Shown: positions 68 to 22,485, counted from the stretch's first letter. The stretch is DNA of 32,000 nt from Candidatus Nanohalobium constans (GCF_009617975.1 NZ_CP040089.1:420001-452000), one strand, 5' to 3'. Program-made: numbers and translations. The notes: generated by a model from the letters alone, not told the origin.

Positions 68-2335
68 TCACTCATTCTCAACTTCACTACTCAATCCCTG
101 CACACCGTAACTCTCAGTGTTAACCCTGATCTGATCCAAATCAGCATTACTTGGGTCAACAAAGTTTAAGGCACCGGTTCCACTAGGAGTCGACAAACGC
201 ATAAAGCTTCTATCAACATCCTGAAGATCGAACACAGGAACCTCAATACTGCCAGAAGGAGTATTCAGCTTGGTAGCTCCAAGAGGGGTAGAGATATTAG
301 GATGAATATTATCATGGAACCACCACTCATTGACACTCCCGTTCCGTGGCTGTTCAACAACCTCCCGAGTCTTCAATTCATATCGTGTAGCGTTTGGAAG
401 ACCAGTAATTGTAGCTTTTTCCGAATCAGAAGAGATAGTTTGATCGTCAGTCCAACTGGAAGCACCTGTCTGCCTGTAAAAAATCTCATATTGATCCTCA
501 AACGAAGCATTATCCGTCCAACCAAGCTCTAATTCCCCGCTACCTGTAGCTCGAGAAACCAAGTTAGTAGGAGCAGCAGGCTTAGTGTACTCATGGAGAA
601 TATCCGAGATAACCACTCTATCAAATCCATGGAAATCTGCTCCACCAAGACCACCACGACCACCTAGTCTAATTCTATTATCGGTAGAAAGGTAAGAATT
701 AGGGACTAAAGCGCTTACTTCAACCCATCCTTGCTTGTTGTACTCATGGCCATGTGCAACTATTTCTTGCCAGGAAGAGCCATCATACCAGTCTATAACA
801 GTCCACTCAGTTGAATTATCCATTGAACCTGTCGCCATCACACACTTAACGATAACATCCGATTCACCTGAAAGATCACCGAGATTCTTCTGAATCAAGT
901 TACCGTCATTATCGATATCCTGTGTCAAATCAACCCAGTAAGTACCTTGATCAGCACCACTTATACCAAGATCTCCATTTCCACTATCACTTCTTACATT
1001 CGCTCCAGTAGTAGAATCCCAATTACTCAGGTCTCCAGATTCAAAATCATCCTCAAAATAGACATTACCATTATTACCGTAGTCGAAGTGAACATTCTCA
1101 GACCCAGAGCTACCATTCCAGTATCGGATCTTAAACTGGTAACGAGCATCTTCATTCAAGGTTTCGCCCGACATATCTGCCTCTAATGTAGTATTTGTAT
1201 CTATTGTAAGAGTCTGTGTGTCACCTTTACTTGTTACATCCGTCCCCCAGAAACGCTGCCAGTTCCCGTATCCAGAACCAGTATCCTCGCGAAGAACTAA
1301 AGTAGTACTTATGCTACCTAAGCTCGCTTGATCAGTTTTATTAGTCCATTTAAATTCAAATGTATTAGCATCAGGTCTTGATACTGACGGCTTATGCGGT
1401 GGAATAGGTTCTGTGTAGACCGTCGAGGAGTATGTCCACGAAGAGTTTCCCGCACTGTTTTGAGCGCGGATACGGAACTTGAAAGAAGAGTCGATGCCGA
1501 CCACTCTATCGTAGGGTTCATCACTACTGGGAGTGTAAGCTTGCGAGTAAGATGTGGAGCCATCGTCGTTGATTAGATTAGGAGCGCCTCTCGGATTTGT
1601 ATACCCCATTCCATCACGATTAATGTCAACATTGTAATCGCCACGCTCGCCACCCCAATCATCTGGTTCATCCCAATGCACTGTGATCTGGTCATTGGCA
1701 TCGACAGTTACAGAAACATTCTGCGGTTGGGAAGGAGCACTTACACGAGGTTCATATTGGATGTAGTCTGTCCAATGATCATATGCAGCGCCACAACAAG
1801 TATTTTGATCCATTGTCTGATCGGCGATATCTTCTGGCTGATTAACATTCACTATTTCAATGCTGGTGACAGGGTTGTTTGTGTCTAAGTTGGCTGTGTA
1901 ATTCTTGACTGTTCCGGTTGACAGGTTTTCCCACCTGATATCATATGTTCCAGCACTGTAGTCGAAAGTCAAAGTTACCTCATGCCAATCATTATAATTA
2001 GAGCTTGAGTAGGCATCTACTCCTGATGAACCGTCCGTATATGTCCAGCCAGGATTAGTAGTTCCAAAACCACAAACACGGTTTCCGGAACTATCAAACA
2101 ACTGGTAAGCTGCCCCATGGCTATTACTTGTCTCCTTATAATATATTCGGAACTTGCTTATTTCTTCGCCAAAACCCCGTTCAGCCATCAAATAATTATC
2201 ATAATTAGTTCCATGGTCTCCATGCGCACTGTAAGAACCGGAATAAGAAGTAGAGTCTGTATTCAAGCCACTAACATTATTCCACTCAGCAAGATCATTA
2301 TCCTCAAAATCATCCAAAACATTACTCAGTGCCAT
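68..2335 (-). CDS. Large extracellular-type protein with two concanavalin/LamG-like modules and at least three fibronectin type III-like modules; no signal peptide of its own
   Basis: 2268-nt ORF. Two similar module starts (MALSNVLDDFEDNDLAEWNN and YFEDDFESGDLSNWDS) look like LamG/ConA-type lectin folds. FN3-like starts: PSQPQNVSVTVDANDQITVHWDEP, PHKPSVSRPDANTFEFKWTNK, PAAPTNLVSRATGSGELELGWTDNASFEDQYEIFYR. N/S/T/D-rich. The N-terminus has no hydrophobic or RR signal. Confidence 0.8.
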   Translation of the reverse strand: MALSNVLDDFEDNDLAEWNNVSGLNTDSTSYSGSYSAHGDHGTNYDNYLMAERGFGEEISKFRIYYKETSNSHGAAYQLFDSSGNRVCGFGTTNPGWTYTDGSSGVDAYSSSNYNDWHEVTLTFDYSAGTYDIRWENLSTGTVKNYTANLDTNNPVTSIEIVNVNQPEDIADQTMDQNTCCGAAYDHWTDYIQYEPRVSAPSQPQNVSVTVDANDQITVHWDEPDDWGGERGDYNVDINRDGMGYTNPRGAPNLINDDGSTSYSQAYTPSSDEPYDRVVGIDSSFKFRIRAQNSAGNSSWTYSSTVYTEPIPPHKPSVSRPDANTFEFKWTNKTDQASLGSISTTLVLREDTGSGYGNWQRFWGTDVTSKGDTQTLTIDTNTTLEADMSGETLNEDARYQFKIRYWNGSSGSENVHFDYGNNGNVYFEDDFESGDLSNWDSTTGANVRSDSGNGDLGISGADQGTYWVDLTQDIDNDGNLIQKNLGDLSGESDVIVKCVMATGSMDNSTEWTVIDWYDGSSWQEIVAHGHEYNKQGWVEVSALVPNSYLSTDNRIRLGGRGGLGGADFHGFDRVVISDILHEYTKPAAPTNLVSRATGSGELELGWTDNASFEDQYEIFYRQTGASSWTDDQTISSDSEKATITGLPNATRYELKTREVVEQPRNGSVNEWWFHDNIHPNISTPLGATKLNTPSGSIEVPVFDLQDVDRSFMRLSTPSGTGALNFVDPSNADLDQIRVNTESYGVQGLSSEVENE

Positions 2336-2349
2336 CTAAACACACTAAA

Positions 2350-2577
2350 TCAACTTAAATCTTTCCTAAACCAGATTTTGTGATTTTCAGGGTTTTGAGG
2401 ATCAGTTCGTCTCACATCAATTTCAGATAGGTCTAAATTAGTTTTTCTCTTGTTGAAGGTTTGTAGTAGTTGTTCTATCATGCCTGGGAGAGAAGATAGA
2501 GAGAGTGCTGCGGCGCCTGTACCTAAGCCGAGTACTTTCAGGAATTCTCTGCGTGAAGTCTTTTCTTCTCCCATCAT
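2350..2577 (-). CDS. Mini-protein consisting almost entirely of a twin-arginine (Tat) signal peptide plus a ~45-aa basic tail
   Basis: Near-consensus Tat motif TSRREFLKVLGLGTGAAALSLSS. A GAGGT Shine-Dalgarno-like element lies just upstream of the two tandem ATGs, and the gene starts 10 nt after the stop of the upstream gene. It cannot be joined to the downstream 755-aa ORF by one frameshift, because stops occur in both other frames between them. Confidence 0.65.
   Translation of the reverse strand: MMGEEKTSRREFLKVLGLGTGAAALSLSSLPGMIEQLLQTFNKRKTNLDLSEIDVRRTDPQNPENHKIWFRKDLS
2536..2556 (-). other. Twin-arginine motif S-R-R-E-F-L-K of the 75-aa ORF
   Basis: Direct translation of residues 8-14. 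It matches the S/T-R-R-x-F-L-K Tat consensus. Confidence 0.7.
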
Positions 2578-2587
2578 TGTACCTCTT

Positions 2588-4204
2588 TTAGTCTAAGTTT
2601 GTGCAGTATACGATTTGTCCTGTTGTGGAAGGACCGTTACTGCTGCAGTCTCTTTTGTCTAAGACTGCATTTTTGATTTCGTTTTTGTTTAAATCTAGGT
2701 TTCCGTTCGGTATTTCTATGCTGCCGCCGTTATTAAGATACATTAAATGCTCGTTTGTTCCAACTTTGTCATGGATTACTAACCTGTTATTACTACCAGT
2801 TTGATCTTCTATTCTCCAGTTTGTGCCTCCTAAATCTATGTAAGCTCCGGAGTTTAATCTCATGTTTCCACCAACATCTAACGCTGTTCCACTGACGCCC
2901 GGACTAGCTATGTCAAGATTTCCGTTGGGGACTTCGACACCCCCACTATCTGGAATGATAATTTCATCGTTTCCTGTGTTGAAATTAAAGATGGAGAGAC
3001 CATTCTTGTTGTTTGAGTAACCTAAGTTGTAGAGATCGTTACTATTTCTCTGGAAACGAATATTGACATTATTGCTTGATTCTGTGCTTTCCAGGGTTAG
3101 AGGAGTACTACTAGATTGGGTTATATCCAAATCGCCGTTCGGTATTTCTATGTTTCCTCCTGGTTTTGCTGTTAATGTGTTGGTTTCTCCGGGTTGGAGT
3201 TTGATGTTTCTTGATCCGCTGTTTGTTCCTATGTTGTATCCGTTGTCGGTGATGTTGTGGGTTGCCCAGTATGTTGATGTTGATTCTTCTGTTACCAGGA
3301 ACTTTGCGTTGGCGGCTGATGCATCGATTATATCGCCGTTTCCAGGGTTGTTTACTGTTAGTTTTCCGTTTGGTATTTCCATGTTTCCGTTTTGCCGCAT
3401 TATGAGGTTTACGTTTGTATCGTCGTAGAATCTGAAGCTTCCGTCTGTTGAGTATTCTCTTCCTATCCAGGAGTTGCCGTCTCCGTCGTTATCCATGTAT
3501 TCGATTCTGCTGGGGTTGACAAGCTGGTTTCCGTTCAGGTCTAGGTTGCCGTTTGGTATTTCTACATTTCCACCTTCTTTGAGTCTTAAAATGTCTTGGT
3601 TGTTGTTTGTGTCTATGATTTGGATGTTTTGTCCGCCTGTCATTATCTGATCTGGTGCTATTATGTTGTTTGTGCCTAGTAGGTCTATTGATCCGTTGAT
3701 GCTGTCGCCGTTTGCTCTTACGAAGTTGTTTTGTGTCCAGTTGAGGTTTGCTGCGTCTCGTGAGTTTTCCGGGTTTTTGAGGTTGGTTATTTTGTTTGTT
3801 CCCATGTTGATTGTTGTGTTGGCTTTGTTGCCTTCGTTGAGTATTTGTGAAAGGTTTTGGCTTCCTGATATTCCGTTTAACTGGTTGTCTACATAGTTTT
3901 TGGGTGCTGCGTCTGAATTGGATTGTGGTGTTGGTAGTCCTGTTATGTTGTTGCTTTTAGCGTTTAGTCTGCCGTTTAAGGTGTCTCCTTCTTTGTTGAG
4001 GTATGTGCTGTCTGCGTATCCTTTGGTCATTGGTGCTGATGTTGATCCTGGGTTGGGTAGTCCTTCGATTGTGGTTCCGTCGTTTAGTTGTATGTCTGTG
4101 TAGAATTGGACTGGGTCTGGGTCTCGGAATTCTAGGTCTGCGGCTGCTGGAACTGCTAGAAGACCGGTGATCAGGGTTAATACGAGTATTTTGTTGTTTA
4201 GCAT
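2588..4204 (-). CDS. Secreted tail-fibre-like repeat protein (Sec signal, N-terminal fibre-type motifs, five G-G-N-x-E-I-P-N-G-N-L-D repeats)
   Basis: Sec-type signal MLNNKILVLTLITGLLAVPAAA. N-terminal motifs TKGYADSTYLNKEGDTLNGRLNA, DAAPKNYVDNQL and NFVRANGDSINGSIDL resemble phage tail-fibre repeats. Five copies of GGN[VIM]E[IV]PNG[NKD]L[DT] are spaced 61-77 aa apart. The C-terminus has a Cys pair (CSSNGPSTTGQIVYC). The start overlaps the stop of the upstream pilin-like gene by 7 nt. Confidence 0.85.
   Translation of the reverse strand: MLNNKILVLTLITGLLAVPAAADLEFRDPDPVQFYTDIQLNDGTTIEGLPNPGSTSAPMTKGYADSTYLNKEGDTLNGRLNAKSNNITGLPTPQSNSDAAPKNYVDNQLNGISGSQNLSQILNEGNKANTTINMGTNKITNLKNPENSRDAANLNWTQNNFVRANGDSINGSIDLLGTNNIIAPDQIMTGGQNIQIIDTNNNQDILRLKEGGNVEIPNGNLDLNGNQLVNPSRIEYMDNDGDGNSWIGREYSTDGSFRFYDDTNVNLIMRQNGNMEIPNGKLTVNNPGNGDIIDASAANAKFLVTEESTSTYWATHNITDNGYNIGTNSGSRNIKLQPGETNTLTAKPGGNIEIPNGDLDITQSSSTPLTLESTESSNNVNIRFQRNSNDLYNLGYSNNKNGLSIFNFNTGNDEIIIPDSGGVEVPNGNLDIASPGVSGTALDVGGNMRLNSGAYIDLGGTNWRIEDQTGSNNRLVIHDKVGTNEHLMYLNNGGSIEIPNGNLDLNKNEIKNAVLDKRDCSSNGPSTTGQIVYCTNLD
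2690..3574 (-). repeat. Five dispersed copies of a ~36-nt coding repeat at 3536-3574, 3356-3391, 3122-3160, 2912-2947 and 2690-2728
   Basis: On the plus strand the copies read ccgtt[ct]ggtatttc[tc]a[tc]. The copy at 2912-2947 is more diverged (ccgttggggacttcgaca). The repeat also produces the recurring FPFGISM strings in spurious antisense ORFs of the track. Confidence 0.85.
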
Positions 4205-4977
4205 GTTTGTCCCATGCAGAGGTTGTTGTCTGGTTTTATTTCTGTAAGGTTGAGGGTTCCATCAACGGTATTGTTTTCTTCACTTACATATCCTTCGAGG
4301 CTTCCCTCTTCGACGCCGCAGTTTCCACCTATGCAACCCCATTCTACCGAGTTGGTTTCGAGGGCTCCAGTCATCTCATCTCCGCTACGGTTGACATATT
4401 CTCTTACACGGTTGTCGTCTGTTGGACCGGAGTCCCCGCAGTTTCCGCCTAGACAGATATCTGAGTTCGTAGCTCGGAATGTAGAATTTGATTCAAGGGA
4501 ACTGATTTCGCCCCCGCCGATTAACAGGTAAGGTATCTGGATGCTGTCCAGTTGTACTGGCAGCCTGATATCCGTTGTTTGCTTGATGTTAGGTACTTCT
4601 GCACGGTCGTAGACTACTGTAAATGTGAAATCGTTGCATTCTTCTGTTTTAGTTGCTCCACCTAAGTTGAATGGTTCGCTGCTTCTATAAAGTGCTTTAC
4701 TTTGATTATTGTACAGTGTTTCGTTTCCTTCTATGATTATCTGGTCGATTACTACTTCTTCTGCTACCATGCTTTGAAGGGATAATGCTAGTTCTTGGCT
4801 TGTGGTTATACCCATCTCAGAGATTTTTACATCTCTTGTGCCAAGTGATTGGGGTTCAAGGTTACATGGGTCTGGTATCTGGGTGTATACCGTGCCGCTT
4901 ATCAATGCTACTGCTACAACCATCCAACCGTAGTTTGCCAGGTATTCGATTGAGGACTGTCCTTTCCAAACTGCCAC
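4198..4977 (-). CDS. Archaeal type IV pilin-like protein (class III signal peptide, DUF361-type) with a Cys-rich, tail-fibre-motif C-terminal domain
   Basis: GTG start. N-terminus MAVWKG/QSSIEYLANYGWMVVAVALISGTVY has a K-G then Q-x-S-x-E prepilin-peptidase-type site followed by a hydrophobic helix. The C-terminal part has three C-x-G-x-x-C units (CLGGNCG, CIGGNCG, CMGQTC) and the motifs EYVNRSGDEMTGALE and GYVSEENNTVDGTLNL. Confidence 0.8.
   Translation of the reverse strand: MAVWKGQSSIEYLANYGWMVVAVALISGTVYTQIPDPCNLEPQSLGTRDVKISEMGITTSQELALSLQSMVAEEVVIDQIIIEGNETLYNNQSKALYRSSEPFNLGGATKTEECNDFTFTVVYDRAEVPNIKQTTDIRLPVQLDSIQIPYLLIGGGEISSLESNSTFRATNSDICLGGNCGDSGPTDDNRVREYVNRSGDEMTGALETNSVEWGCIGGNCGVEEGSLEGYVSEENNTVDGTLNLTEIKPDNNLCMGQTC
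4888..4977 (-). other. Class III (prepilin-like) signal peptide and hydrophobic pilin helix
   Basis: Residues 1-30 of the 259-aa ORF: short charged leader, K-G|Q-S-S-I-E, then about 20 hydrophobic residues. Confidence 0.7.
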
Positions 4978-5000
4978 AAGGTTTATTCGGTGTTATTTGG

Positions 5001-5008
5001 ATTAAAAC
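5001..5008 (-). promoter_or_regulatory. TATA-like box (GTTTTAAT on the minus strand) about 27 nt upstream of the pilin-like GTG start; putative internal promoter with a leaderless transcript
   Basis: AT-rich octamer in the 71-nt gap between the 1203-aa gene and the pilin-like gene. Its spacing matches the other putative promoters in the window. Confidence 0.4.
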
Positions 5009-5048
5009 CCATCGGTCAATAGAAAGGAAAAGAAGAATAATATAGTAG

Positions 5049-8000
5049 CTAGAACAGGTTGCTGATGCTGTCAATGATGTCTTGGAAAAGGCTGCCTAAA
5101 CTATTCGATGATGTGAATTGACCTGTTATTGTTTCGCTTGGTCCTAGTTGGATGGTTCTGCTGCCGGTGAATTCTTCTCCATCATCTGTGACTGTTGCGG
5201 TGACTGTGTATTCTCCTTCTGGCAGGATGCTGGTCCTGTAGTTTCTTACCAGTACATCGTAGATCCTCTCTGTCTCTGTGTTGCGGTAGACCTCATCGCC
5301 TTCACTGTCGATCACGCTGGTTGTTATGCTGACCTGGTTGGATGTGTCTGGTTTTTCTTCGTCCCAGAGCTTGACATCGTAGCTTATCCTCTCATCTGCG
5401 GTTGATTTGTGGAGTATTGCGACGCTGTAGTCACTTGCTCCTGTATCCTCGATATTTAGGTTCAGTGGTATGTTCAGTGTCTGGTTGTTCCACTGAAGTG
5501 TCAGGTTGCCTGTATAATTTCCAGGTACTGAGCCGTTAATCTGGAGAGGCAGGTTGTTCTCTCCTTTCTTAGCTGTGAAGTTAGCCGGTACTGACACGAT
5601 TTCGGATACATTTCCGGTTACACTTGTGGTGATGTTTGTGTCTTCCGAGACATTGAATGTCAGGTTGTAACTGTCATCTATCCCTGGTTCTATATCCAGG
5701 TCTACTTCGTTGTCTCCTGTCTGGATTCTTTCTTCAATGCTTTCTTCCTCTTCTTCATCTGTTGTGGTGAAGCTGCCTCCGAAGCCGCCTCCACCACCTC
5801 CACCGCCTCCTCCGCTGGATGAGCCGCCTGAGTCTTCATCGTCGCCGCCTCCGTCGTTGTCTGAGTTGGAGGATACTGTGATGTTGTAGCTTTGGATTGC
5901 TGTGTCTGTTCCATCTGATACTTGGATTTCGACTTTGTATTCTCCGGTGTTGCTTGGGGTCCAGGTTATCTTACCGGTGTTGTTGTTTATGCTCATGCTT
6001 TGCGGTGCAGTGTTGAGTGAGTATTCTAGTGTGTCTCCGTCTGGGTCTGTGGCTTGGGCATCGTAGGTGTATTGTTGGTTGACGGTTGCTGTTGTTTTGA
6101 AGCTGGTTGATGTGAAGCTTGGAGCGTTGTTTCCTGTTACTTCTATCCGCACTGATTCAGTTGCTGTTGATCCGTTGTCGTCTGTCAATGTCAGGGTTGC
6201 TGTGTAGTTTCCTGGTTGTGTGTATGTGTAGTTGGTTTCTATGCCGTTTGCTTTGCCTCCTTCTCCGAAGCTCCAGTTGTACTGTGTTATGCTTCCATCA
6301 GGGTCTGCACTGTTTGAAGCGTTGAAATTTACTGTTAGTGGTGCTTTTCCTTTTGTTTTATTGACTGTTATCTCTGGATGAGGGATTTGGTTTTTCGGTG
6401 CTTTGTTTACTGTCAAGCTGTAGCTTTGTGTGGTGCTGTTTGTTCCATCTGATACATTTAGTGTGACTTGGTGTGGTGAGTTATCGGCGTTGTTGTTTGT
6501 TGGTGTCCAGGTTACCTCTCCGTTTTGATTGATTGTCATGTTGGCAGGTCCTTGTTCTTTCGTGTATGTGAATGATGCTGCTCCGTTGTCGGGGTCGCTT
6601 ACGGATAGCTGGTAGTAGTACTGTGTGTATGCGTCTACAGTGGTTTGTGGGTTTGATGTGATTGTTGGCGGGTCGTTTACGGGGTTGACTGTGATTTCAA
6701 AGTTGTTGCTGGTTGTTGCGCCGTAAGGGTCTGTTGCTTGGACTGTTACTGTGCATGTTCCGTGGAAGTTGGTGTTTGGTGCGATGTCTATCTCGTTTTC
6801 ATCGATGCTGACGCCGCATTTGTCTGAGGAGACATCTATTGATACATCTAGGTTGTTGTATGTTGATTCTGCGTCGGATACGAAGTTCACTAAGTTCACA
6901 TAATCGTATTCTGTGGTGTCTTCGTCAAGTGTTACATCTGGTATTTCGGAGACTGTTGGAGCTGTATTTTTCTCAGTTACTGTGACTGTCATCGAGTCTG
7001 AGTCTGTTGCTCCTGCAGTATCGGTGGCTGTGAAGGTGATCGATTCTGTGCCTGTCCATCCACTGGTTGAAGTTATGTTTACGTCGTGTGTATCCGGATC
7101 AATGTTGACATCTAGGTTTTGGTTGTCTTCTGCTCCATTAGATGTCCAGCTAATCTCCGATGCCAGGTCTTGCTGGTCTGATACGTAATTGTCTAGGTTG
7201 ATATCGTTGTTGGTGTCTCCTTCGACTATTTTCTTGTTAGGGATATCAAGTACTTTTGGAGCAGTGTTGTTGTTCTGGATTACTACTGATTTTTGTAAAG
7301 GATCTGAGGTGGTTGATTCTATGGTTAATGAGCCGCTGCTCGTTGTATATCCAGTCTTGGAGACATTGAATGTGTAGCTGCCTTTAGTCAGTTTGGTGAT
7401 CTCTGTGTTTCCGTTGGAGTCTGTTTGATTTGTTCTATCGTTTATTTTGACTTCTGCATTGTTTACTGGGTCTCCGTTTGTGTCTACTACGTTGAATTCT
7501 ACTTTCCATTTTGGTTCTTCGGCTACATCTATTTCTAGGTTGGCAGTATCTGGAGAGGTAGGAGGGTTTTCGCCTTCTGTTTGGACTGATTCGCCGGCAA
7601 CTTCTACAGTGTATGTTCCTGCGCTCTTTGGAGTCCAGCTGAATGAGAATGATTCTGCATCCTGTTCGTTTTGGTTAGCAGGTAGTTGTTCGGTGCTGAA
7701 GTTTACTTCTTGACCGTCACTGTCTCTTACAGTGTAGTTTACATCAGTCTTCACTGCAGTTTTGTCGTAATCGTTGTCGGCGTAGTTGCTTATCTTGCTG
7801 TAAGTGAATGTCTGTTGCTGTGTTGCTTTTGGATGGTTGTCCTGTATGTCTAGGTCGTTGATTAAGGTGTAGTACTCGTTCTGCGGTCTTTCCTCGTGTA
7901 CTGTGATGGGTTCCTTGTCTGTGGAAAGTATGTTGGTGCTGCTGCACTGTGGGTCAATTACTTCGGTTGACGCTTGGACAGTGTAGTTCTCTGACTTGCT

Positions 8001-8660
8001 TGGAGTCCATCCAAACTCGACTTGGTCGGTCTCATTCATGTAGATGTTCTTCTGCTGCTCGGCAGTGTGAACAGGGTTTCCATCCGTATCAGTTACTTCT
8101 AGACTGATATTTGTATTAGCGGAGTAGTACTGATCCTTGTATGCCTCAGGTACATGATCTACAGGCCCTGCTTCCTCGAAAGCACTGGAAACCGTTGATT
8201 CTGCAGTCGCAGATACGTCTACCGTCAACGGTTCATTGGCATAAACATCGTTGGTAACTGAAAATGAATCGACTGTAGCTGAGCACTGTGAAATCTTCTC
8301 GAATTGGACATCCGTAGTGTTTCCACCGCATGATCCTGAACCACCACAGCTCCAGTCTGCGTATGCCTCTACAGGCACATATCCTGGTGATACATGGTAG
8401 ACTGCGTAGCCATGGTCTTGGAGCTCTGCGGGGTAATCGATAGTTATCTCTCCATTACTGGTGGTGCCTGAGTCCAGAATGTTTCCTCCGAAATCTCCGA
8501 CATTGCTGCAGTCGGTCGAGTTAAGGCAGTTGAACGCCATTACCTCGACATCATCGACATTATAATCATAATTTATCGTAGCCTGAGCTGCTGCAACACT
8601 TGTTAATGCAGCTGCAAACACTATCAGTAAACCTATTTTGCTGCCTATTTTTCTTTTCAT
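5049..8660 (-). CDS. Giant secreted adhesin-like protein (Sec signal; Ig/cadherin-like, carboxypeptidase-regulatory-like and PKD modules; poly-Gly/acidic hinge; C-terminal beta-rich module)
   Basis: Signal MKRKIGSKIGLLIVFAAALTSVAAAQA. PKD-like module around aa 758-841 (APLTVNFNASNSADPDGSITQYNWSFGEGG...YTYTQPGNYTATLTLTDDNG). Two He_PIG/dystroglycan-cadherin-like modules (NDPPTITSNP...VSDPDNG...TWTPT and NNAPSFTST...ATDPDGDTLEY...ITWTPS). Two NTAP-initiated Ig-like modules. CarboxypepD_reg-like segment (KVEFNVVDTNGDPVNNAEVKINDRTNQTDSNGNTEITKLTKGSYTFNVSKTGYT). Many N-x-S/T sequons. ATGA overlap with the upstream gene. Confidence 0.9.
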   Translation of the reverse strand: MKRKIGSKIGLLIVFAAALTSVAAAQATINYDYNVDDVEVMAFNCLNSTDCSNVGDFGGNILDSGTTSNGEITIDYPAELQDHGYAVYHVSPGYVPVEAYADWSCGGSGSCGGNTTDVQFEKISQCSATVDSFSVTNDVYANEPLTVDVSATAESTVSSAFEEAGPVDHVPEAYKDQYYSANTNISLEVTDTDGNPVHTAEQQKNIYMNETDQVEFGWTPSKSENYTVQASTEVIDPQCSSTNILSTDKEPITVHEERPQNEYYTLINDLDIQDNHPKATQQQTFTYSKISNYADNDYDKTAVKTDVNYTVRDSDGQEVNFSTEQLPANQNEQDAESFSFSWTPKSAGTYTVEVAGESVQTEGENPPTSPDTANLEIDVAEEPKWKVEFNVVDTNGDPVNNAEVKINDRTNQTDSNGNTEITKLTKGSYTFNVSKTGYTTSSGSLTIESTTSDPLQKSVVIQNNNTAPKVLDIPNKKIVEGDTNNDINLDNYVSDQQDLASEISWTSNGAEDNQNLDVNIDPDTHDVNITSTSGWTGTESITFTATDTAGATDSDSMTVTVTEKNTAPTVSEIPDVTLDEDTTEYDYVNLVNFVSDAESTYNNLDVSIDVSSDKCGVSIDENEIDIAPNTNFHGTCTVTVQATDPYGATTSNNFEITVNPVNDPPTITSNPQTTVDAYTQYYYQLSVSDPDNGAASFTYTKEQGPANMTINQNGEVTWTPTNNNADNSPHQVTLNVSDGTNSTTQSYSLTVNKAPKNQIPHPEITVNKTKGKAPLTVNFNASNSADPDGSITQYNWSFGEGGKANGIETNYTYTQPGNYTATLTLTDDNGSTATESVRIEVTGNNAPSFTSTSFKTTATVNQQYTYDAQATDPDGDTLEYSLNTAPQSMSINNNTGKITWTPSNTGEYKVEIQVSDGTDTAIQSYNITVSSNSDNDGGGDDEDSGGSSSGGGGGGGGGGFGGSFTTTDEEEEESIEERIQTGDNEVDLDIEPGIDDSYNLTFNVSEDTNITTSVTGNVSEIVSVPANFTAKKGENNLPLQINGSVPGNYTGNLTLQWNNQTLNIPLNLNIEDTGASDYSVAILHKSTADERISYDVKLWDEEKPDTSNQVSITTSVIDSEGDEVYRNTETERIYDVLVRNYRTSILPEGEYTVTATVTDDGEEFTGSRTIQLGPSETITGQFTSSNSLGSLFQDIIDSISNLF
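5775..5828 (-). repeat. Low-complexity hinge coding for SGGGGGGGGGGFGG, flanked by DNDGGGDDEDSGG and TTTDEEEEES
   Basis: Direct translation of aa ~945-962 of the 1203-aa ORF. The plus strand reads ccgcctccaccacctccaccgcctcctccgc. Confidence 0.8.
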
Positions 8661-10600
8661 TGTACTCCGCCTCCTCTGTCTTCTCCGCCCTGTAGACCGC
8701 CATTATCGCCGCCTCCGGAATCGTCGTCTTCATCATCGTCATTTGAACTGGATGAGATTGTGCTGCCGATTTCTTGATTGATTACTTCTGTTGGCATTTT
8801 GTCGAATGGTTTGCCTCTTTTTTCTAGGTATTCCATGATGTCGCTGAATTGCTCTTCTTTTATTTCATCTATAGGAGCTAAGTTGTCTATGAAGTTTTCT
8901 CTGGTTATTCCTAGTTCTTTGACTGGGGCTGCCGCTGCTTCTAAGTAGTCGAAGGCTTCTTCGTTTAAGTCTCTGTCTTTGAATTCGGAGCTGTCTTCCG
9001 TCATGTATTCATGGGCAATATTGTATATTGCCGTGGAGGATTCTAGAATATTGAATTTCTCTTTTCTATCTTCAAGCCGGTCATTGAATGCTTTTTCAGC
9101 AATTTTTTGGACCTTGCTGTTGTTTTCTGGGAACATCGTAGCAAGGTTGTGCATGTCTACGACCAGGTCTTCAAAGACATCTTCCCGGGAGCCTGTTAGT
9201 ATTTTCTCTACTCTTCTTCCTAAGCTGTTTTCGTTGAATAATGGATTCCTGAGGTGGTAATGGCTGTCTGAATCTTCGATTAGTTTGTTGGCGGTTTTGA
9301 AGGCTCCGTCTCTGTGGTTTTTCCAGTCTTTGAAGTCTAGAGTTGTTGTTAGAGTTCTGTCGTTTATGTCGGATCTCCTTTTTATTTTGACTTTTCCTTC
9401 ATCGGAGATTGAAATATCCTTCAAGTTGTCATCTTCGTTGAAGGCTCCGTAACTCCGCATAGGATTCATGTTATAGTTTTGTTCATTCGGACCTCTACCA
9501 AGCCCGATAATTGTATCGTTATCTACACCATCTCCTGACCAGTCGTCTTCGTATGGATTATCTGGTAGTTCGAAGCTACTTTTGTTGTCTGTTCTATGGT
9601 TCATCCATTCTACTTCGGTTTCGCTTATCTCTTGGTCCTTGTTTAGTACTCCGGCAAGGATGTATCTGGATCCATCTTGAACTGTATGATCTCCGTCTTG
9701 AATAGATTGGTCGGAGTTTTCATAGGCTAGTCCTACATCGTAGGCTTGTTCAACTATTTGGAATGCCTCAATGTTCTCTTCCTGGACACGGTTCATCAAC
9801 TGTTCGGTTTGTCCGTTTTGTACTACATCGTCGTAGATGTCGATGAACTTGCCGAACTCGAAGTCTGGTTCGTACTCTGAGCTAGTACTTGTTTCGGTGC
9901 TGACATTGTTGTCGTACCATTCGGAAGCAGTTTCCAAGTCTTTCAATGTTTCAGCTGTATCTCTAGCTTCATCTTCTGATACAGAGCTTAAAGCCCTGTA
10001 GAATTCGGTTCTAGAGTTTGAAGACGAGTGGTGCTGTTCGTTGTCGACGAGAAGGTCGGTGATATTGATTTCTCCGCTAAAGGCGTCGCTTATAGCGCCT
10101 TCATCAAGACTTGTTCCATCTTCATCAAGGTAAGTTTCATCAAAGAATCCGTCATGAATTGTTTCATACGCCTCCTGCGCGCTAAGCGCCTCCGAACCCG
10201 AATCAATGTATTCACTGCTCTCCAGAACTGTCTCATGTCCGGATTCAAAGAAATGCTCCTGAACATCATCTACGTGATCATTGTCGGAAATACTGCCAAA
10301 GAAATACTCTTCCAAGCTCCCGCTATCATAATTTAACACTAAACCATCGTCTCTACTCGTACCAACACTCCCAGTCTCATCTGCCGCAGTCTTAGGCTTC
10401 GAAGAGTTAAGATCCATCGGATCTTTGGATCCAGGCAAACCATCAGAATCATCTTGTCTCCTTCCACCTAAGTAGACTGAAATACCTGAAGCTGCGGCAA
10501 GCGCACCTACGGCTACCATAGTTCTTCTATCTATATTTATATTGGTATAACTAGATTCTCCGTTATCTTCATTTCCAGACAATGGATTTTTTGGAATCAT
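8657..10600 (-). CDS. Very acidic orphan protein with an N-terminal RR-containing hydrophobic anchor or signal; first gene of the surface cluster
   Basis: 1944-nt ORF. N-terminus NIDRRTMVAVGALAAASGISVYLGG is Tat-like or a signal anchor. The remainder is D/E/S-rich with no motif I recognise. C-terminal tail SSSSNDDDEDDDSGGGDNGGLQGGEDRGGG. The stop overlaps the next start (ATGA). Confidence 0.75.
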   Translation of the reverse strand: MIPKNPLSGNEDNGESSYTNINIDRRTMVAVGALAAASGISVYLGGRRQDDSDGLPGSKDPMDLNSSKPKTAADETGSVGTSRDDGLVLNYDSGSLEEYFFGSISDNDHVDDVQEHFFESGHETVLESSEYIDSGSEALSAQEAYETIHDGFFDETYLDEDGTSLDEGAISDAFSGEINITDLLVDNEQHHSSSNSRTEFYRALSSVSEDEARDTAETLKDLETASEWYDNNVSTETSTSSEYEPDFEFGKFIDIYDDVVQNGQTEQLMNRVQEENIEAFQIVEQAYDVGLAYENSDQSIQDGDHTVQDGSRYILAGVLNKDQEISETEVEWMNHRTDNKSSFELPDNPYEDDWSGDGVDNDTIIGLGRGPNEQNYNMNPMRSYGAFNEDDNLKDISISDEGKVKIKRRSDINDRTLTTTLDFKDWKNHRDGAFKTANKLIEDSDSHYHLRNPLFNENSLGRRVEKILTGSREDVFEDLVVDMHNLATMFPENNSKVQKIAEKAFNDRLEDRKEKFNILESSTAIYNIAHEYMTEDSSEFKDRDLNEEAFDYLEAAAAPVKELGITRENFIDNLAPIDEIKEEQFSDIMEYLEKRGKPFDKMPTEVINQEIGSTISSSSNDDDEDDDSGGGDNGGLQGGEDRGGGVQ

Positions 10601-15093: not shown

Positions 15094-15309
15094 CTAATTG
15101 TTGAATAATTCTGAAAATGTTTGCGCCATCTTCTTGTAACCCATTAAGACTAGACCAACAGTCACCAATCCTGTTCCAAGGAAGAAACCTCCTGGAATTG
15201 AGGGAATAATGTTGGTCGCACTGTTCAATATTGCTAGGCCTCCAGCTAGGAAGATAATGGTTCCAGTAACTTCGATCAGGTAATCCTGTAAGTCATCTAG
15301 CCAAGTCAT
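15094..15309 (-). CDS. Small two-TM membrane protein translationally coupled to nrdJ
   Basis: The ATG at 15309 (MTWLDDLQDYL...) is preceded by a perfect GGAGGTGAT Shine-Dalgarno that overlaps the nrdJ stop. TM segments TGTIIFLAGGLAILN and GGFFLGTGLVTVGLVLMGY. The GTG start in the track (15318) is less likely. Confidence 0.65.
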   Translation of the reverse strand: MTWLDDLQDYLIEVTGTIIFLAGGLAILNSATNIIPSIPGGFFLGTGLVTVGLVLMGYKKMAQTFSELFNN

Positions 15310-15313
15310 TTGA

Positions 15314-15322
15314 ATCACCTCC
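15314..15322 (-). promoter_or_regulatory. Shine-Dalgarno GGAGGTGAT, 4 nt upstream of the ATG at 15309, overlapping the nrdJ TAG stop
   Basis: The minus strand reads TAGGAGGTGATTCAAATG. It is complementary to the conserved archaeal 16S 3' end (..GAUCACCUCC). Confidence 0.6.
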
Positions 15323-21548: not shown

Positions 21549-21970
21549 TTTCTTTCCTTGATTTTTTGTTCTATTTCAGGGATGATTTCTTCGGCAAATT
21601 CTTTGATTTGTCCTGCTTCTTCCACTTTGATTTCTCTTGCTTCATATCTTGATTCGTTTCGTAACTTTCTGAATCTGTGCAGCCTGTTTACTATGGATCT
21701 GTTGAATTCTAATTCGTCTTTTGCATAAGCTATGGTGGAGACATGGTCGTTTGATTTGTATCCATCAGCAGCCATTGCTGCCTCTAAAGCCTCTCTTAAA
21801 GACTCATATATGTTTTCCAGGATTTCAAAGGCAGTGTTTTCATCTATTTTCCTGGACTTCTGGTTCTCAAGTCTTGCCTTTGATCTTTTGATAAGTCCTT
21901 TTTGCTTTGCGTAATCTTCGCTTACTTCCTCAACTCTGTCATCCTTCAATAGTTCGTTAAAATTCCTCAT
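21545..21970 (-). CDS. HEPN-domain protein (putative toxin partner of the upstream nucleotidyltransferase)
   Basis: All-helical 141 aa with an HEPN-type LHRFRKLRNESRYEAREI motif. Its ATG overlaps the stop of the MNT gene (ATGA). Confidence 0.75.
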   Translation of the reverse strand: MRNFNELLKDDRVEEVSEDYAKQKGLIKRSKARLENQKSRKIDENTAFEILENIYESLREALEAAMAADGYKSNDHVSTIAYAKDELEFNRSIVNRLHRFRKLRNESRYEAREIKVEEAGQIKEFAEEIIPEIEQKIKERN

Positions 21971-22485
21971 AGTTCAAGATGACCTCTCATAGTTATTCCA
22001 TTGGCTAAAGCTTCCACAAAGTTTTCTCCTGCTTCATCAAGTTTAATATTGTGGATGTTTATCTCTCTTCCAAGCTCTTCCTCATATTCGCTTAAATCCC
22101 TATCAAATTTTTTCCCTTCTAAAACCGCTATATCTATATCACTGCTGGCTTTATCCTCTCCACGGCTATAACTACCGAATAAGACTATTGCTACAGGTAT
22201 ACACTTCTCTTCGATTGAATTGATTAACCCAGAACTAGTCAAACTGTAGATATTGTAAGCTCTTTTTACATCTCTGAAATATTTGTTCCTAGATGCCTGT
22301 ATCTCCATTCTTCCCCTATTCTCTCCAACCGATACTAACCCTTCTTCCTCAATTTCACTAACTATTCTCGAAACTGTGGATGGTGCAACACTAACCTCCT
22401 CCGCCATCTCACGGACTCCAAACACCCGATCAGGATCCCGAAAAATTGTTTTAACTATCAAACGCTTATTTTTTGAATCAAACAT
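21967..22485 (-). CDS. Winged-helix plus minimal nucleotidyltransferase (MNT) protein, antitoxin-like
   Basis: N-terminal wHTH (VREMAEEVSVAPSTVSRIVSEIEEEGLV), then the Pol-beta-superfamily NTase signature VLFGSYSRGEDKASSDIDIAVL. Confidence 0.88.
   Translation of the reverse strand: MFDSKNKRLIVKTIFRDPDRVFGVREMAEEVSVAPSTVSRIVSEIEEEGLVSVGENRGRMEIQASRNKYFRDVKRAYNIYSLTSSGLINSIEEKCIPVAIVLFGSYSRGEDKASSDIDIAVLEGKKFDRDLSEYEEELGREINIHNIKLDEAGENFVEALANGITMRGHLEL

What the first reader, a model, noticed from the sequence alone, without database searches (positions are those of the whole stretch)
2588..4977. A type IV pilin-like protein and the overlapping downstream 538-aa protein share phage-tail-fibre-type motifs; the latter has a five-fold G-G-N-x-E-I-P-N-G-N-L-D repeat
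**Seen in sequence**
- The 259-aa protein starts with a class III signal (K-G|Q-S-S-I-E plus a hydrophobic helix). Its C-terminal half contains EYVNRSGDEMTGALE and GYVSEENNTVDGTLNL.
- The 538-aa protein, whose ATG overlaps the pilin stop, contains TYLNKEGDTLNGRLNA, DAAPKNYVDNQL and NFVRANGDSINGSIDL.
- All of these fit [YF][VL]-x3-G-[DG]-x-h-x-G-x-L-x-h, often preceded by DAA-x-K-x-Y-V-D.
- The 538-aa protein then has five copies of GGN[VIM]E[IV]PNG[NKD]L[DT], spaced 61-77 aa apart. The copies are also conserved at the DNA level.

**Inference**
- From memory, the shared pattern is the hallmark of phage tail-fibre N-terminal repeats (Y-x-P-L-S-G-G-T-M-T-G-x-L type).
- The repeat spacing suggests a beta-helical or fibre-like solenoid.
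- A pilin N-terminus fused to a fibre-type head, translationally coupled to a fibre protein with the same motif, suggests a pilus-anchored fibre or tip adhesin. That would be a viral receptor-binding architecture put to cellular use.
Basis: partly seen in the sequence, partly recalled or inferred. Interest (0 to 1): 0.7.

Follow-up and report, generated by a model that had tools for sequence, protein, structure and literature searches.

The report
Pilin-anchored virus-like host-binding fibre
A tiny salt-loving archaeon that lives attached to a larger archaeon carries a conserved gene pair: a pilin-like anchor protein followed by a secreted fibre built from the same modules that viruses of such hosts use in their tail fibres. 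This suggests, but does not prove, that symbiont and virus grip the host with related tools.

Summary
Both ORFs lie on the minus strand of the Candidatus Nanohalobium constans chromosome. They are annotated only as hypothetical proteins (QGA80385.1 and QGA80384.1).

**The 259-aa protein**
- It has an invariant class III (prepilin-type) N-terminus, homologous to short DPANN pilins.
- It also has a beta-sandwich head and a C-terminal stub: two fibre half-repeats between three CxxxxC pairs.

**The 538-aa protein**
- It is a Sec-secreted, anchorless mosaic.
- Residues 43-181 are homologous to shaft repeats of phage tail fibres (database-wide E = 1e-16).
- Residues 186-523 hold the five GGNxEIPNG repeats. 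They align in register with a baseplate-adjacent fibre protein of a Hafunaviridae-like haloarchaeal myovirus (E = 3e-20 pairwise, 3e-8 database-wide).

**Conservation**
- The pair, usually followed by a Tat-signal protein, recurs in nine distinct Nanohaloarchaeota loci besides the window.
- Flanks are housekeeping genes. No viral hallmark gene was seen.
- The fibre's middle part varies. Two partners carry YadA-head adhesin repeats.

**Best reading (about 0.5):** a pilin-anchored, probably trimeric, host-binding surface fibre.

**Not shown:** prepilin processing, trimerisation, physical docking and the receptor. AlphaFold monomer models were uninformative.

This is a new variant of known kinds. 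I found no description in the papers I could search.

The parts
4198..4977 (-). p259 (QGA80385.1), 259 aa: pilin-like anchor protein with a C-terminal fibre stub.
   Evidence: ORF. It has 12 full-length homologs at 37-89% identity.
4885..4977 (-). p259 residues 1-31: class III (prepilin-type) signal MAVWKG|QSSIEY, followed by the hydrophobic helix LANYGWMVVAVALISGTVY.
   Evidence: G6, Q7, E11, Y12, Y16, G17, W18 and M19 are invariant in 13 sequences. The same N-terminus occurs in about 27 short DPANN pilins. Hydropathy is 1.74 over 15 aa. No curated pilin model matches.
4543..4839 (-). p259 residues 47-145: beta-sandwich head domain. The invariant C38 (just upstream of this range) and C114 probably form a disulfide.
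   Evidence: This is the only confident part of the AlphaFold model, with pLDDT about 78. tblastn homology to short pilins reaches about residue 149. Foldseek found nothing significant; the archaeal pilin 8fk7_A gave E = 0.12 and TM 0.49.
4201..4485 (-). p259 residues 165-259: the fibre stub. Its order is CLGGNC - YVNRSGDEMTGAL - CIGGNC - YVSEENNTVDGTLNL - CMGQTC.
   Evidence: Three CxxxxC pairs, VNRSGD and TxDGTL are invariant. The stub profile beats every decoy on p538 and other fibres.
4198..4204 (-). 7-nt overlap (ATGCTAA) of the p259 stop codon and the p538 start codon.
   Evidence: Seen directly. Overlapping or abutting junctions recur in L001, L002, L006, L007 and L057.
2588..4204 (-). 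p538 (QGA80384.1), 538 aa: secreted mosaic fibre protein.
   Evidence: ORF. It has 49 homologs. There is no hydrophobic segment besides the signal peptide.
4139..4204 (-). p538 residues 1-22: Sec-type signal peptide MLNNKILVLTLITGLLAVPAAA.
   Evidence: Hydropathy is 2.13 over residues 4-26. The cleavage site is inferred from the A-x-A motif and from the alignment of 11 partner proteins.
4070..4138 (-). p538 residues 23-45: N-terminal element DLEFRDPDPVQFYTDIQLNDGTT, specific to partners of the pilin-stub protein. It is the proposed docking end.
   Evidence: The pattern A-[DEQN]-[LI]-x-F-x-x-x-x-[PVI]-x-[FYS] is conserved in 11 partners, with F26 invariant. The docking role is inferred.
3662..4078 (-). 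p538 residues 43-181: phage tail-fibre shaft repeats of the type GDxhxGxL...NxIxxLxxPxxxxDAxxKxYVD. Copies lie at 42-65, 71-106, 131-154 and 165-181.
   Evidence: P0010 gives E = 2.6e-17 and P0011 (carries PF03906) gives E = 1.4e-16, both database-wide. BLASTP gives 6e-19. Annotated tail fibres of Synechococcus and Roseobacter phages give E = 4e-8. The unit profile, which includes p538's own unit, hits solved phage fibres.
2681..3649 (-). p538 residues 186-508: domain of five 41-77-aa repeats, each ending in GGNxEIPNGxLD. The cores lie at nt 3539-3574, 3356-3391, 3125-3160, 2912-2947 and 2693-2728.
   Evidence: Repeats shown. Residues 186-523 align to the viral protein P0028 at 75-387 (E = 3e-20 pairwise; 3e-8 database-wide). 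Only 58 clusters among 1.84 billion representatives carry the domain.
2350..2577 (-). 75-aa protein with a twin-arginine (Tat) signal (SRREFLKVLGLG), starting 10 nt after p538. It is the third member of the conserved cassette.
   Evidence: TIGR01409 scores 23.3 bits against a cutoff of 16.7. Pfam TAT_signal gives E = 4.6e-4. Tat-signal genes follow the fibre gene in L001, L002, L006 and L054.
68..2335 (-). 755-aa FN3-domain protein without a signal peptide, starting 14 nt after the Tat ORF in another reading frame. It may belong to the operon.
   Evidence: fn3 gives E = 5e-12. Its membership of the cassette is not established.

Best explanation
This is a chromosomal cell-surface fibre cassette of Nanohaloarchaeota. 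It is not a prophage.

**Gene 1 (p259)** is a modular type IV pilin-like protein.
- A class III signal would be cut by the cell's prepilin peptidase.
- The hydrophobic N-terminal helix would hold the protein in the membrane or in a type IV filament.
- A beta-sandwich head follows, and then a short fibre stub: two fibre half-repeats stapled by three CxxxxC cysteine pairs.

**Gene 2 (p538)** is translationally coupled to gene 1 and exported by Sec. It has no anchor of its own.
- A conserved 20-aa N-terminal element would dock it onto the stub.
- Next come phage-type shaft repeats.
- The distal domain of five GGNVEIPNG repeats is shared with fibre proteins of haloarchaeal myoviruses.
- The fibre is probably a homotrimer. 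It would extend from the symbiont surface and bind the envelope of the haloarchaeal host (Halomicrobium for this strain).

**Gene 3** is a small Tat-exported protein. It could be a distal segment or an assembly factor, by analogy with the small gene that follows tail-fibre adhesin genes in hafunaviruses.

The anchor is conserved while the fibre's middle and distal parts are swapped between genomes. That is the pattern seen in receptor-binding proteins.

**Shown:** the homologies, the signals, the gene-pair conservation and the cellular context.
**Inferred:** processing, trimerisation, docking of p538 on p259, and host binding.
For: **Source and context**
- p538 is 100% identical to a Ca. Nanohalobium constans protein on a 973-kb contig.
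- The window flanks are housekeeping genes: GSDH, class II RNR, NrdR, SOD and endonuclease IV.
- GC content shows no anomaly.

**Pilin-like end**
- G6, Q7, E11 and Y12 are invariant.
- The N-terminal half is homologous to short pilins of Nanohaloarchaea and to N-terminal segments in Woese-, Micr- and Altiarchaeota.
- The same pilin domain is fused to what look, by eye, like LamG-like, Ig-like or sulfatase-modifying-factor-like modules elsewhere. This points to a modular pilin family.

**Pair conservation**
- The pair occurs in L001, L002-L005, L006, L007-L009, L012, L054, L055 and L057.
- Upstream synteny is SRP54-Metallophos_2 or Nop-fibrillarin. No viral hallmark gene was seen in the Pfam annotations of the neighbours, although many neighbours have no Pfam hit.
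- The partner N-terminus is conserved.

**Viral homology**
- Shaft repeats.
- Repeat domain against P0028 and P0032, which sit directly after Baseplate_J.
- That contig's Baseplate_J is 62% identical to the Baseplate_J of HSTV-2, HRTV-2 and HCTV-6.

**Adhesin and trimer hints**
- Partner orthologs in L006 and L012 carry YadA_head repeats well above the Pfam cutoff.
- Among the solved proteins hit by the shaft unit are phage tail fibres, tailspikes and hyaluronidases. From my own knowledge these are trimeric.

**Need for a partner**
- p538 has no transmembrane segment or other anchor after its signal peptide.
- The stub and the fibre share motifs above the decoy level.
- The C-terminal CxxxxC cap occurs in 14 of 23 signal-peptide fibres and in 1 of 30 signal-less, virus-type ones. 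It is shared with the p259 stub.

**Filament machinery in this organism**
- La Cono et al. 2020 (PMC7443923) report pilus- or archaellum-like stalks and at least 20 type IV filament genes in this strain. They also report that SPEARE proteins are absent.
Against: - No curated pilin or tail-fibre model reaches its threshold for either protein.
- No pilus assembly ATPase or platform gene lies next to the pair in the window, and none was found in the 14 related short-pilin loci checked.
- AlphaFold monomer models are poor, with pLDDT 52 and 51. The fold, the oligomeric state and the interface are therefore unknown.
- Foldseek found no significant match for p259.
- The idea that the p259 C-terminus and the p538 N-terminus complete one repeat unit found no support.
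- Adjacency and coupling would also fit mere co-regulation.
Confidence: 0.5

Rival explanations
1. The two proteins are co-expressed but physically independent. p259 is an ordinary minor or modular pilin. p538 is a secreted or S-layer-associated adhesin that is not attached to it.
For: - No interaction evidence of any kind was obtained.
- The similarity between stub and fibre is confined to short motifs.
- Class-2 fibres (for example P0023 in L056) are not immediately preceded by a p259-type gene.
Against: - The order and the overlap are strictly conserved in nine distinct loci besides the window.
- A partner-specific N-terminal element is found only in fibres that follow a pilin-stub gene.
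- p538 has no anchor of its own.
- The CxxxxC cap motif is shared.
Confidence: 0.27
2. The genes are a remnant of an integrated virus, or part of a tailocin-like particle. In that case p538 is simply a viral tail fibre.
For: - Homology to viral fibre proteins is strong.
- One related locus (L002) has a weak Phage Tail Collar hit nearby: 22.1 bits against a cutoff of 24.
Against: - No capsid, terminase, portal, sheath or baseplate gene was seen in the window or in the Pfam annotations of the related loci. Flanks are SRP54, fibrillarin, Nop, RNR and similar genes.
- p538 lacks the viral N-terminal attachment domains: PF03906 scores only 12 bits, and the alignment to P0028 starts at P0028 residue 75.
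- Both proteins carry cellular export signals.
- The p259 family is absent from IMG/VR.
- GC content matches the host genome.
Confidence: 0.05
3. The fibre is a surface structure with another target. It could bind polysaccharide substrate such as chitin or glycogen, bind other nanohaloarchaeal cells, or act as a decoy or shield against viruses. In this reading it does not recognise the host.
For: - No receptor is known.
- La Cono et al. 2020 (PMC7443923) leave open whether surface filaments attach to polysaccharide or to the host.
- The neighbouring genes encode PKD and FN3 proteins.
Against: - The repeat domain is shared specifically with fibres of viruses whose isolated relatives infect Halorubrum and Haloarcula.
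- The repeat family is tiny and, as far as sources are named, confined to Nanohaloarchaea and such virus contigs.
- Fibre modules vary between genomes, as expected for host-specificity determinants.
Confidence: 0.12
4. The motifs are a composition artefact of N/G/D-rich sequence.
For: p538 is 16% Asn and 10% Gly.
Against: - Shuffles give 0.0006-0.002 expected matches for the shared motif and none for the repeat core.
- Database-wide E-values reach 1e-17.
- Decoys score well below the real hits.
Confidence: 0.01

Closest known systems
Modular (bimodular) type IV pilins, for example PilB and PilC of Streptococcus sanguinis (PMC8179133, PMC9934059)
   Same: A prepilin-type N-terminus and pilin module carries an extra C-terminal module that gives the filament an adhesive function. 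Relatives of the p259 pilin domain carry what look, by eye, like LamG-like, Ig-like or other modules.
   Different: - Here the grafted module is a short fibre stub, not a globular adhesion domain.
- The adhesive part would be a separate, co-translated protein.
- The organism is an archaeon, and no sequence similarity to the bacterial pilins was seen.
Tail fibres of T7-like podoviruses, for example cyanophage P-SCSP1u gp28 (PDB 8i4m), T7 gp17 (Pfam PF03906) and phage depolymerases such as 9m4c
   Same: p538 residues 43-181 carry the same shaft and junction unit...GDxMxGxL...NKIxxLxxPxxxxDAxxKxYVD.
   Different: - p538 has no N-terminal tail-binding domain (PF03906 scores 12 bits against a cutoff of 25).
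- It has a Sec signal instead.
- It is encoded in a cellular chromosome.
Fibre protein at the gp31 position of Mincapvirus (Hafunaviridae) haloarchaeal myoviruses, in the hypervariable adhesin region that sets host range (Liu et al. 2021, PMC8651126)
   Same: - The five-repeat domain of p538 aligns in register with P0028, which lies directly after Baseplate_J in a relative of HSTV-2 and HRTV-2.
- A small gene follows the fibre or adhesin gene in both systems.
   Different: - p538 lacks the conserved viral N-terminal 60 aa.
- The isolated hafunaviruses in INPHARED lack the GGNVEIPNG repeat.
- The direction of transfer is unknown.
Coiled-coil proteins in type IV pilus loci of cluster 2 DPANN that are predicted to resemble the reovirus sigma-1 attachment protein (Hamm et al. 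2024, PMC11291902)
   Same: Both concern Nanohaloarchaeota, an association with type IV filaments, and a resemblance to a viral attachment protein.
   Different: - The proteins differ (coiled coils, similarity by structure prediction only).
- The loci differ (next to CpaF and TadC).
- There is no pilin fusion and no tail-fibre repeats.
Trimeric autotransporter adhesins (YadA family)
   Same: Partner proteins of p259 homologs in L006 and L012 carry YadA_head repeats (72.6 and 98.6 bits). This shows that the slot is used for adhesin modules, which in YadA are trimeric (from my own knowledge).
   Different: p538 itself has no YadA repeats, there is no beta-barrel anchor, and the envelope is archaeal.

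Membership tests
Archaeal type IV pilin / class III signal peptide protein | A short basic leader ending in Gly, with cleavage before a polar residue, Glu at +5 and a hydrophobic helix of about 20 aa. | tested here: met
   The N-terminus is MAVWK-G|QSSIE-YLANYGWMVVAVALISGTVY. G6, Q7, E11 and Y12 are invariant in 13 sequences. The same motif occurs in about 27 short DPANN pilins.
Archaeal type IV pilin / class III signal peptide protein | A match to a curated pilin or class III signal model (Pfam or NCBIfam). | tested here: not met
   No pilin family appeared for p259, its 12 homologs or 7 related short pilins, even at E <= 1-10.
Archaeal type IV pilin / class III signal peptide protein | A globular beta-rich head after the N-terminal helix, similar to solved pilins. 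| tested here: inconclusive
   The AlphaFold model shows a beta-sandwich at residues 47-145 with pLDDT about 78. The best pilin match is 8fk7_A with E = 0.12 and TM 0.49. Nothing is significant.
Archaeal type IV pilin / class III signal peptide protein | Processing by a prepilin peptidase and assembly by an ATPase and platform machinery. | not testable with these tools
   No assembly genes lie next to the pair in the window, and none was found in the 14 short-pilin loci checked. The strain is reported to have FlaI- and FlaJ-type genes elsewhere (PMC7443923).
Phage tail fibre (T7 gp17-like / podovirus type) | A repeated shaft unit of the type GDxMxGxL...P....DAxxKxYVD. | tested here: met
   P0010 and P0011 give E = 2.6e-17 and 1.4e-16. 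BLASTP gives 6e-19. Annotated phage tail fibres give E = 4e-8. The unit profile gives E = 2e-9 to 2e-3 on solved phage fibres.
Phage tail fibre (T7 gp17-like / podovirus type) | An N-terminal tail-attachment domain (PF03906). | tested here: not met
   The score is 12.1 bits against a cutoff of 25.2. Only profile positions 119-153 of 157 match.
Phage tail fibre (T7 gp17-like / podovirus type) | Encoded within a viral structural module. | tested here: not met
   The context is chromosomal housekeeping in the window and in the related loci. The p259 family is absent from IMG/VR.
Phage tail fibre (T7 gp17-like / podovirus type) | A homotrimeric fibre. | not testable with these tools
   Only monomer prediction was available and it failed, with pLDDT 51.
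Hafunaviridae-type baseplate fibre (gp31 position) | A central GGNVEIPNG repeat domain. | tested here: met
   p538 residues 186-523 align to P0028 residues 75-387 with E = 3e-20 pairwise and 3e-8 database-wide. P0028 and P0032 lie directly after Baseplate_J.
Hafunaviridae-type baseplate fibre (gp31 position) | The conserved N-terminal domain shared with HSTV-2 gp31 and HRTV-2 gp31. | tested here: not met
   The conserved viral N-terminus is P0028 residues 6-67. The p538 alignment begins at P0028 residue 75.
Trimeric autotransporter adhesin (YadA) | YadA_head repeats. | tested here: not met
   p538 has none. They occur only in the partner orthologs of L006 and L012.

The most novel reading that the evidence does not exclude
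Nanohaloarchaeal ectosymbionts and tailed viruses of haloarchaea draw on one shared pool of receptor-binding fibre modules, because both must latch onto the same haloarchaeal envelope.

In the symbiont these modules would be mounted on a dedicated pilin-derived adaptor: a trimeric cap or membrane stalk stapled by CxxxxC knots. That adaptor would replace the viral baseplate. Swapping the distal cassette (GGNVEIPNG repeats, YadA heads and others) would set which host a nanohaloarchaeon can colonise, just as swapping tail fibres sets viral host range.
Probability: 0.3. Interest if true: 0.85.

Novelty: new variant of a known kind. Interest (0 to 1): 0.62.

Why it matters
How DPANN ectosymbionts recognise their specific hosts is an open question. 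Ca. Nanohalobium constans is one of the few cultivated models. It lacks the SPEARE proteins proposed for other nanohaloarchaea (PMC7443923).

This cassette gives a concrete, testable candidate for host recognition:
- a conserved pilin-like adaptor;
- an exchangeable fibre whose distal domain is homologous to fibres of viruses whose isolated relatives infect Halorubrum and Haloarcula.

If confirmed, three things would follow.
- It would show that a cellular symbiont and viruses share attachment modules.
- It would suggest that receptors identified for haloviruses could predict symbiont host range, and the reverse.
- It would add an archaeal case of a modular pilin that recruits a separate fibre.

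It also assigns a putative role to about a hundred hypothetical proteins of hypersaline metagenomes.

Tried and rejected
- **Structure prediction.** AlphaFold2 monomers with family alignments gave a mean pLDDT of 52 for p259 and 51 for p538. Only the p259 head domain is usable. Both prediction jobs are spent, so no multimer or fusion test was possible.
- **Foldseek.** The p259 model against the PDB gave nothing significant.
- **Curated libraries.** Pfam, NCBIfam and PHROGs on both proteins gave no hit above a curated cutoff. There were only weak tail-fibre PHROGs and PF03906 at 12 bits.
- **PDB by sequence.** Whole p259 family and whole p538 gave nothing.
- **Viral contigs.** The p259 family in IMG/VR gave no relative. 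The 35-sequence p538 alignment was too divergent to seed a locus scan, so an alignment of repeat units was used instead.
- **The genome itself.** Look-ups of the N. constans contig beyond the window failed, as the proteins are not on record.
- **Pilus assembly genes.** A search for a pilus ATPase next to related short pilins, using the Walker A pattern, found only SRP54 and FtsY-like ORFs.
- **Isolated viruses.** The repeat was not found in INPHARED.
- **Split-repeat idea.** The p259 C-terminus plus the p538 N-terminus do not form one shaft unit according to the unit HMM.
- **Evolutionary rates.** Comparing a close relative (L057), the pilin is 89% identical, the partner N-terminus 75% and the upstream gene 70%. 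This gives no clear sign of faster fibre evolution at that distance.
[quoted passage not shown] No paper cites the accessions.
- **Rejected readings.** The prophage reading and the composition-artefact reading were considered and rejected (see the rival explanations).

Full report
**Where the window comes from.** The 538-aa ORF is 100% identical to a hypothetical protein of Candidatus Nanohalobium constans on a 973,463-bp contig. The accessions are QGA80384.1 for p538 and QGA80385.1 for p259. This organism is a cultivated nanohaloarchaeal ectosymbiont of the chitin-degrading haloarchaeon Halomicrobium sp. LC1Hm (PMC7443923). The rest of the window is ordinary chromosome: glucose/sorbosone dehydrogenase, class II ribonucleotide reductase, NrdR, a CBS protein, a NYN protein, endonuclease IV, superoxide dismutase and a nucleotidyltransferase (NTase) protein of the kind that pairs with HEPN proteins. 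There are no tRNA genes, and GC content over the finding is unremarkable.

**Checking the observation.**
- Both ORFs are on the minus strand. p259 is 4198..4977, with a GTG start. p538 is 2588..4204.
- The p538 ATG overlaps the p259 stop by 7 nt.
- The five repeat cores lie at residues 211, 272, 349, 420 and 493, spaced 61, 77, 71 and 73 aa. Three fit the strict pattern and two are close variants.
- Four of the five copies are also detectable as 57-nt DNA repeats at 61-72% identity.
- A relaxed form of the shared motif, written after seeing the matches, is expected about 0.001 times per shuffled protein and is absent from 6164 aa of other window genes. The repeat core never arose in 20,000 shuffles.

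**The 259-aa protein.**
- It has 12 full-length homologs at 37-89% identity, all unnamed sequences from metagenomes.
- Invariant positions are the prepilin-type N-terminus (G6, Q7, E11, Y12, then YGWM), one cysteine pair in the head (C38, C114), three CxxxxC pairs (175/180, 215/220, 254/259), and the motifs VNRSGD and TxDGTL.
- A scan of one genome per species (GTDB) found 39 loci. In all but one, only the N-terminal part of p259 matches, reaching at most residue 149. These genes are mostly short pilins of 145-175 aa with the sequence RKGQSAIEYLTTYGW. They come from Nanohaloarchaea, Woesearchaeota, Micrarchaeota and Altiarchaeota.
- In several genomes the same pilin domain is fused to other C-terminal modules. 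By eye these look LamG-like, Ig-like and sulfatase-modifying-factor-like; they were not scanned. In L055 a PKD domain is inserted before the stub.
- p259 therefore belongs to a family of modular pilin-like proteins.
- No curated Pfam or NCBIfam pilin model detects any of them.
- AlphaFold is confident only for a beta-sandwich at residues 47-145. Foldseek gives no significant hit; an archaeal type IV pilin (8fk7) appears at E = 0.12.
- The pilin assignment therefore rests on the invariant motif and on homology to short DPANN pilins. It does not rest on any curated model or experiment.

**The C-terminal stub of p259.**
- Pairwise, its similarity to p538 is weak (E = 0.004). Its similarity to a phage fibre is not significant (hhalign E = 0.23).
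- A profile of the stub from 13 sequences does better. It scores 23.1 bits on P0019, 18.2 on p538 residues 63-124, 16-17 on P0007 and P0009, and 15.8 on the phage-type fibre P0011.
- The best of 2009 shuffled or reversed decoys scores 9.5 bits.
- The stub is thus related to the first half of the fibre unit (SGDxMTGxL). It lacks the second half.
- Each half-unit is bracketed by CxxxxC. The same CxxxxC ends 14 of 23 signal-peptide-bearing fibre proteins but only 1 of 30 signal-less, virus-type ones.
- From memory, two cysteines four residues apart form the interchain knot that staples FACIT collagen trimers. This is a lead, not a test.

**The 538-aa protein.** It is a mosaic.
- Residues 1-22 are a Sec signal. 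There is no other hydrophobic segment and no recognisable anchor.
- Residues 23-45 (DLEFRDPDPVQFYTD...) form an element conserved in all 11 fibre proteins of this class, with F26 invariant. Seven of the 11, counting p538, are seen directly downstream of a pilin-stub gene; the context of the other four was not examined.
- Residues 43-181 are phage tail-fibre shaft repeats.
  - Database-wide hits include P0010 (E = 2.6e-17) and P0011 (E = 1.4e-16; it carries PF03906). BLASTP against P0011 gives 6e-19.
  - P0011 is itself a homolog of the solved fibre gp28 of cyanophage P-SCSP1u (8i4m, E = 6e-93).
  - tblastn against isolated phages hits annotated tail fibres of Synechococcus and Roseobacter phages (E = 4e-8).
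  - A profile of the 36-aa unit hits solved phage fibres and spikes: 23sh gp9 at 2e-9, 8vbx gp47 at 2e-8, depolymerases 9m4c and 9m4d at 8e-8, phage hyaluronidases at 3e-4. The profile includes p538's own unit but is dominated by phage sequences.
- Residues 186-523 contain the five repeats.
  - The family consensus of the unit is x[VI][RY]DxxNxQDI[AL]RFxEGGNVEIPNGNLD.
  - This domain aligns in register with P0028 (E = 3e-20 pairwise; 3e-8 database-wide).

**The viral counterparts.**
- P0028 and P0032 have no signal peptide. They lie immediately downstream of a Baseplate_J gene in gene arrays resembling the HRTV-2 tail/baseplate module, on contigs of 61% and 54% GC.
- The Baseplate_J protein next to P0028 is 62% identical to those of HSTV-2, HRTV-2, HRTV-11, HCTV-6 and HCTV-15. 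The first 60 residues of P0028 are 55% identical to the gene that follows Baseplate_J in those viruses.
- In HRTV-2 (Hafunaviridae, Mincapvirus) that gene is gp31, directly upstream of the putative adhesin gp32.
- Liu et al. 2021 (PMC8651126) showed that this hypervariable adhesin region determines hafunavirus host range. They also showed that the adhesin gene is followed by a small gene.
- Two IMG/VR contigs carry the same repeat. One has a tape-measure-like ORF followed by an ORF running off the contig end that carries the repeat (L050, 63% GC). The other has a terminase and portal (L049).
- Isolated viruses in INPHARED do not carry the repeat.
- The repeat domain is rare: 58 clusters among 1.84 billion representatives.
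- In the proteins in hand, about half have signal peptides (cellular type) and half have virus-type N-termini.

**The gene pair is conserved and cellular.**
- A p259 homolog directly followed by a fibre gene with the DLEF-type N-terminus occurs in L001, L002-L005, L006, L007-L009, L012, L054, L055 and L057. The two genes often overlap.
- Upstream genes are SRP54 and a metallophosphoesterase in one clade, Nop/fibrillarin in another, and the 1203-aa PKD protein in N. constans and its close relative.
- No viral hallmark gene was seen in any of them, although many neighbouring genes have no Pfam hit.
- The fibre varies from 311 to 1057 aa (complete partners). Two partners carry YadA_head adhesin repeats far above the Pfam cutoff.
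- A protein with a twin-arginine signal usually follows. It is 75 aa in the window and 132, 364, 543 and at least 296 aa in the other loci.

**Most likely mechanism.**
- p259 would be processed like a pilin. It would be held by its N-terminal helix in the membrane, or at the tip of or along a type IV filament.
- Three copies would form a short disulfide-stapled fibre stub.
- The secreted, anchorless p538 trimer would dock by its conserved N-terminal element and project its halovirus-like repeat domain toward the host envelope.
- Shown: the homologies, the signals, the coupling, the conservation and the cellular context.
- Inferred: processing, trimer formation, docking and the target.
- I put about 0.5 on this full model.
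- About 0.27 goes to co-expressed but independent proteins, and about 0.12 to a surface fibre with another target. A viral remnant gets about 0.05 and a composition artefact about 0.01.

**Comparison with what is known.**
- The closest kinds are modular type IV pilins of Streptococcus sanguinis (PMC8179133), podovirus tail fibres, the hafunavirus gp31/adhesin region, and trimeric autotransporter adhesins.
- Within Nanohaloarchaeota, the closest precedent is the set of coiled-coil proteins in pilus loci that resemble the viral sigma-1 attachment protein (PMC11291902). Those are different proteins in different loci.
- p538 fails the membership tests for a viral tail fibre: it has no tail-attachment domain and no viral context. 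It works like one in architecture.
- p259 meets the motif definition of a class III signal protein but matches no curated model.
- I found no paper describing this pair. A 2026 survey of archaeal type IV filament systems does not mention it.

**Verdict.** The finding is real and more interesting than a stray motif. It is a new variant of known kinds, with interest about 0.6. The decisive tests are multimer modelling, N-terminal proteomics, co-purification, cryo-ET localisation and host-binding assays.

Noticed in passing
window 2350-2577 (-) and 68-2335 (-): The 75-aa Tat-signal ORF ends 14 nt before a 755-aa FN3 protein that has no signal peptide and lies in another reading frame. Tat-signal genes at this position in other genomes are 132, 364, 543 and at least 296 aa. 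The two window ORFs could be one gene split by a frameshift, or two genuinely separate genes.
   Followed up: partly
window 68-2335 (-), C-terminus; L001 11323-12510: The C-terminus of the 755-aa protein (LNTPSGSIEVPVFD...LSTPSGTGALNFVDPS) resembles, by eye, the N-terminus of the 395-aa protein at the end of the L001 cassette (KVDTPDGAKSLPVY...KVDTPSGVGYIPLVDPS). This hints at a fourth conserved component.
   Followed up: no
window 5049-8660 (-) and 8657-10600 (-): Upstream of p259 lies a 1203-aa secreted protein with PKD, He_PIG, Big_9 and cadherin-like domains and a poly-Gly/acidic linker. Its start overlaps by 4 nt the end of a 647-aa highly acidic protein with one hydrophobic segment. All these genes are on the same strand as the pair, so the operon may be longer. 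This context is shared only with the close relative L057.
   Followed up: partly
L055 4108-5133: A divergent pilin-stub protein (341 aa) has a PKD domain inserted between the pilin head and the stub. It ends in LCIGNNC and is followed by a 930-aa fibre (P0005).
   Followed up: partly
L056 (Ca. Nanohalococcus occultus CP180231.1) 205-7557: A second class of fibres has the N-terminus EP[SR]HPLSxIxPxDxDxNM (P0007-9, P0012, P0023, P0034 and others). In L056 it lies beside a divergently transcribed cluster of three proteins with class III-like N-termini, and next to giant LamG proteins. This class may use a different anchor.
   Followed up: partly
L002 10983-11588: A 201-aa protein three genes downstream of the fibre gene has a weak Phage Tail Collar match (22.1 bits against a cutoff of 24) with the motif GWTLCDG...PDLRNRFVVG. 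This is another virus-like module in a cellular cassette.
   Followed up: partly
P0014 (L002 8756-9997), P0016, P0025: C-termini: Several fibres end in a conserved domain of about 150 aa (GADLAEIY..GDVVAI..KVPVKV..GDRL). No Pfam hit was found for P0014, the only one scanned at E <= 0.01. From memory it recalls the autoproteolytic chaperone ends of phage fibres.
   Followed up: no
P0039 (Nanohaloarchaea MAG): One repeat-bearing homolog carries PF13884 (Peptidase_S74, the intramolecular chaperone of phage tail fibres and spikes). NCBI names it 'tail fiber domain-containing protein'.
   Followed up: no
L007 71-3121: The SRP54 gene upstream of the cassette in one metagenome contig encodes 1016 aa with intein and LAGLIDADG domains. 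It is an intein-containing SRP54.
   Followed up: no
L055 10384-13150; window 21545-22485: Four tandem nucleotidyltransferase/HEPN gene pairs lie next to the fibre locus in L055. A nucleotidyltransferase gene also lies in the window, next to a 141-aa ORF with no Pfam hit, and another NTase/HEPN pair sits between the fibre gene and the Tat gene in L006.
   Followed up: no
window 15293-16234 (-): A 313-aa, extremely Arg-rich ORF lies in an alternative frame inside the ribonucleotide reductase gene. It is almost certainly a frame artefact.
   Followed up: no
window 19761-21548 (+): A 595-aa protein combines PIN, a T2SSE-like ATPase and a KH domain. It is the only secretion-ATPase-like domain in the window. 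Its domain architecture is not that of a pilus assembly ATPase.
   Followed up: partly
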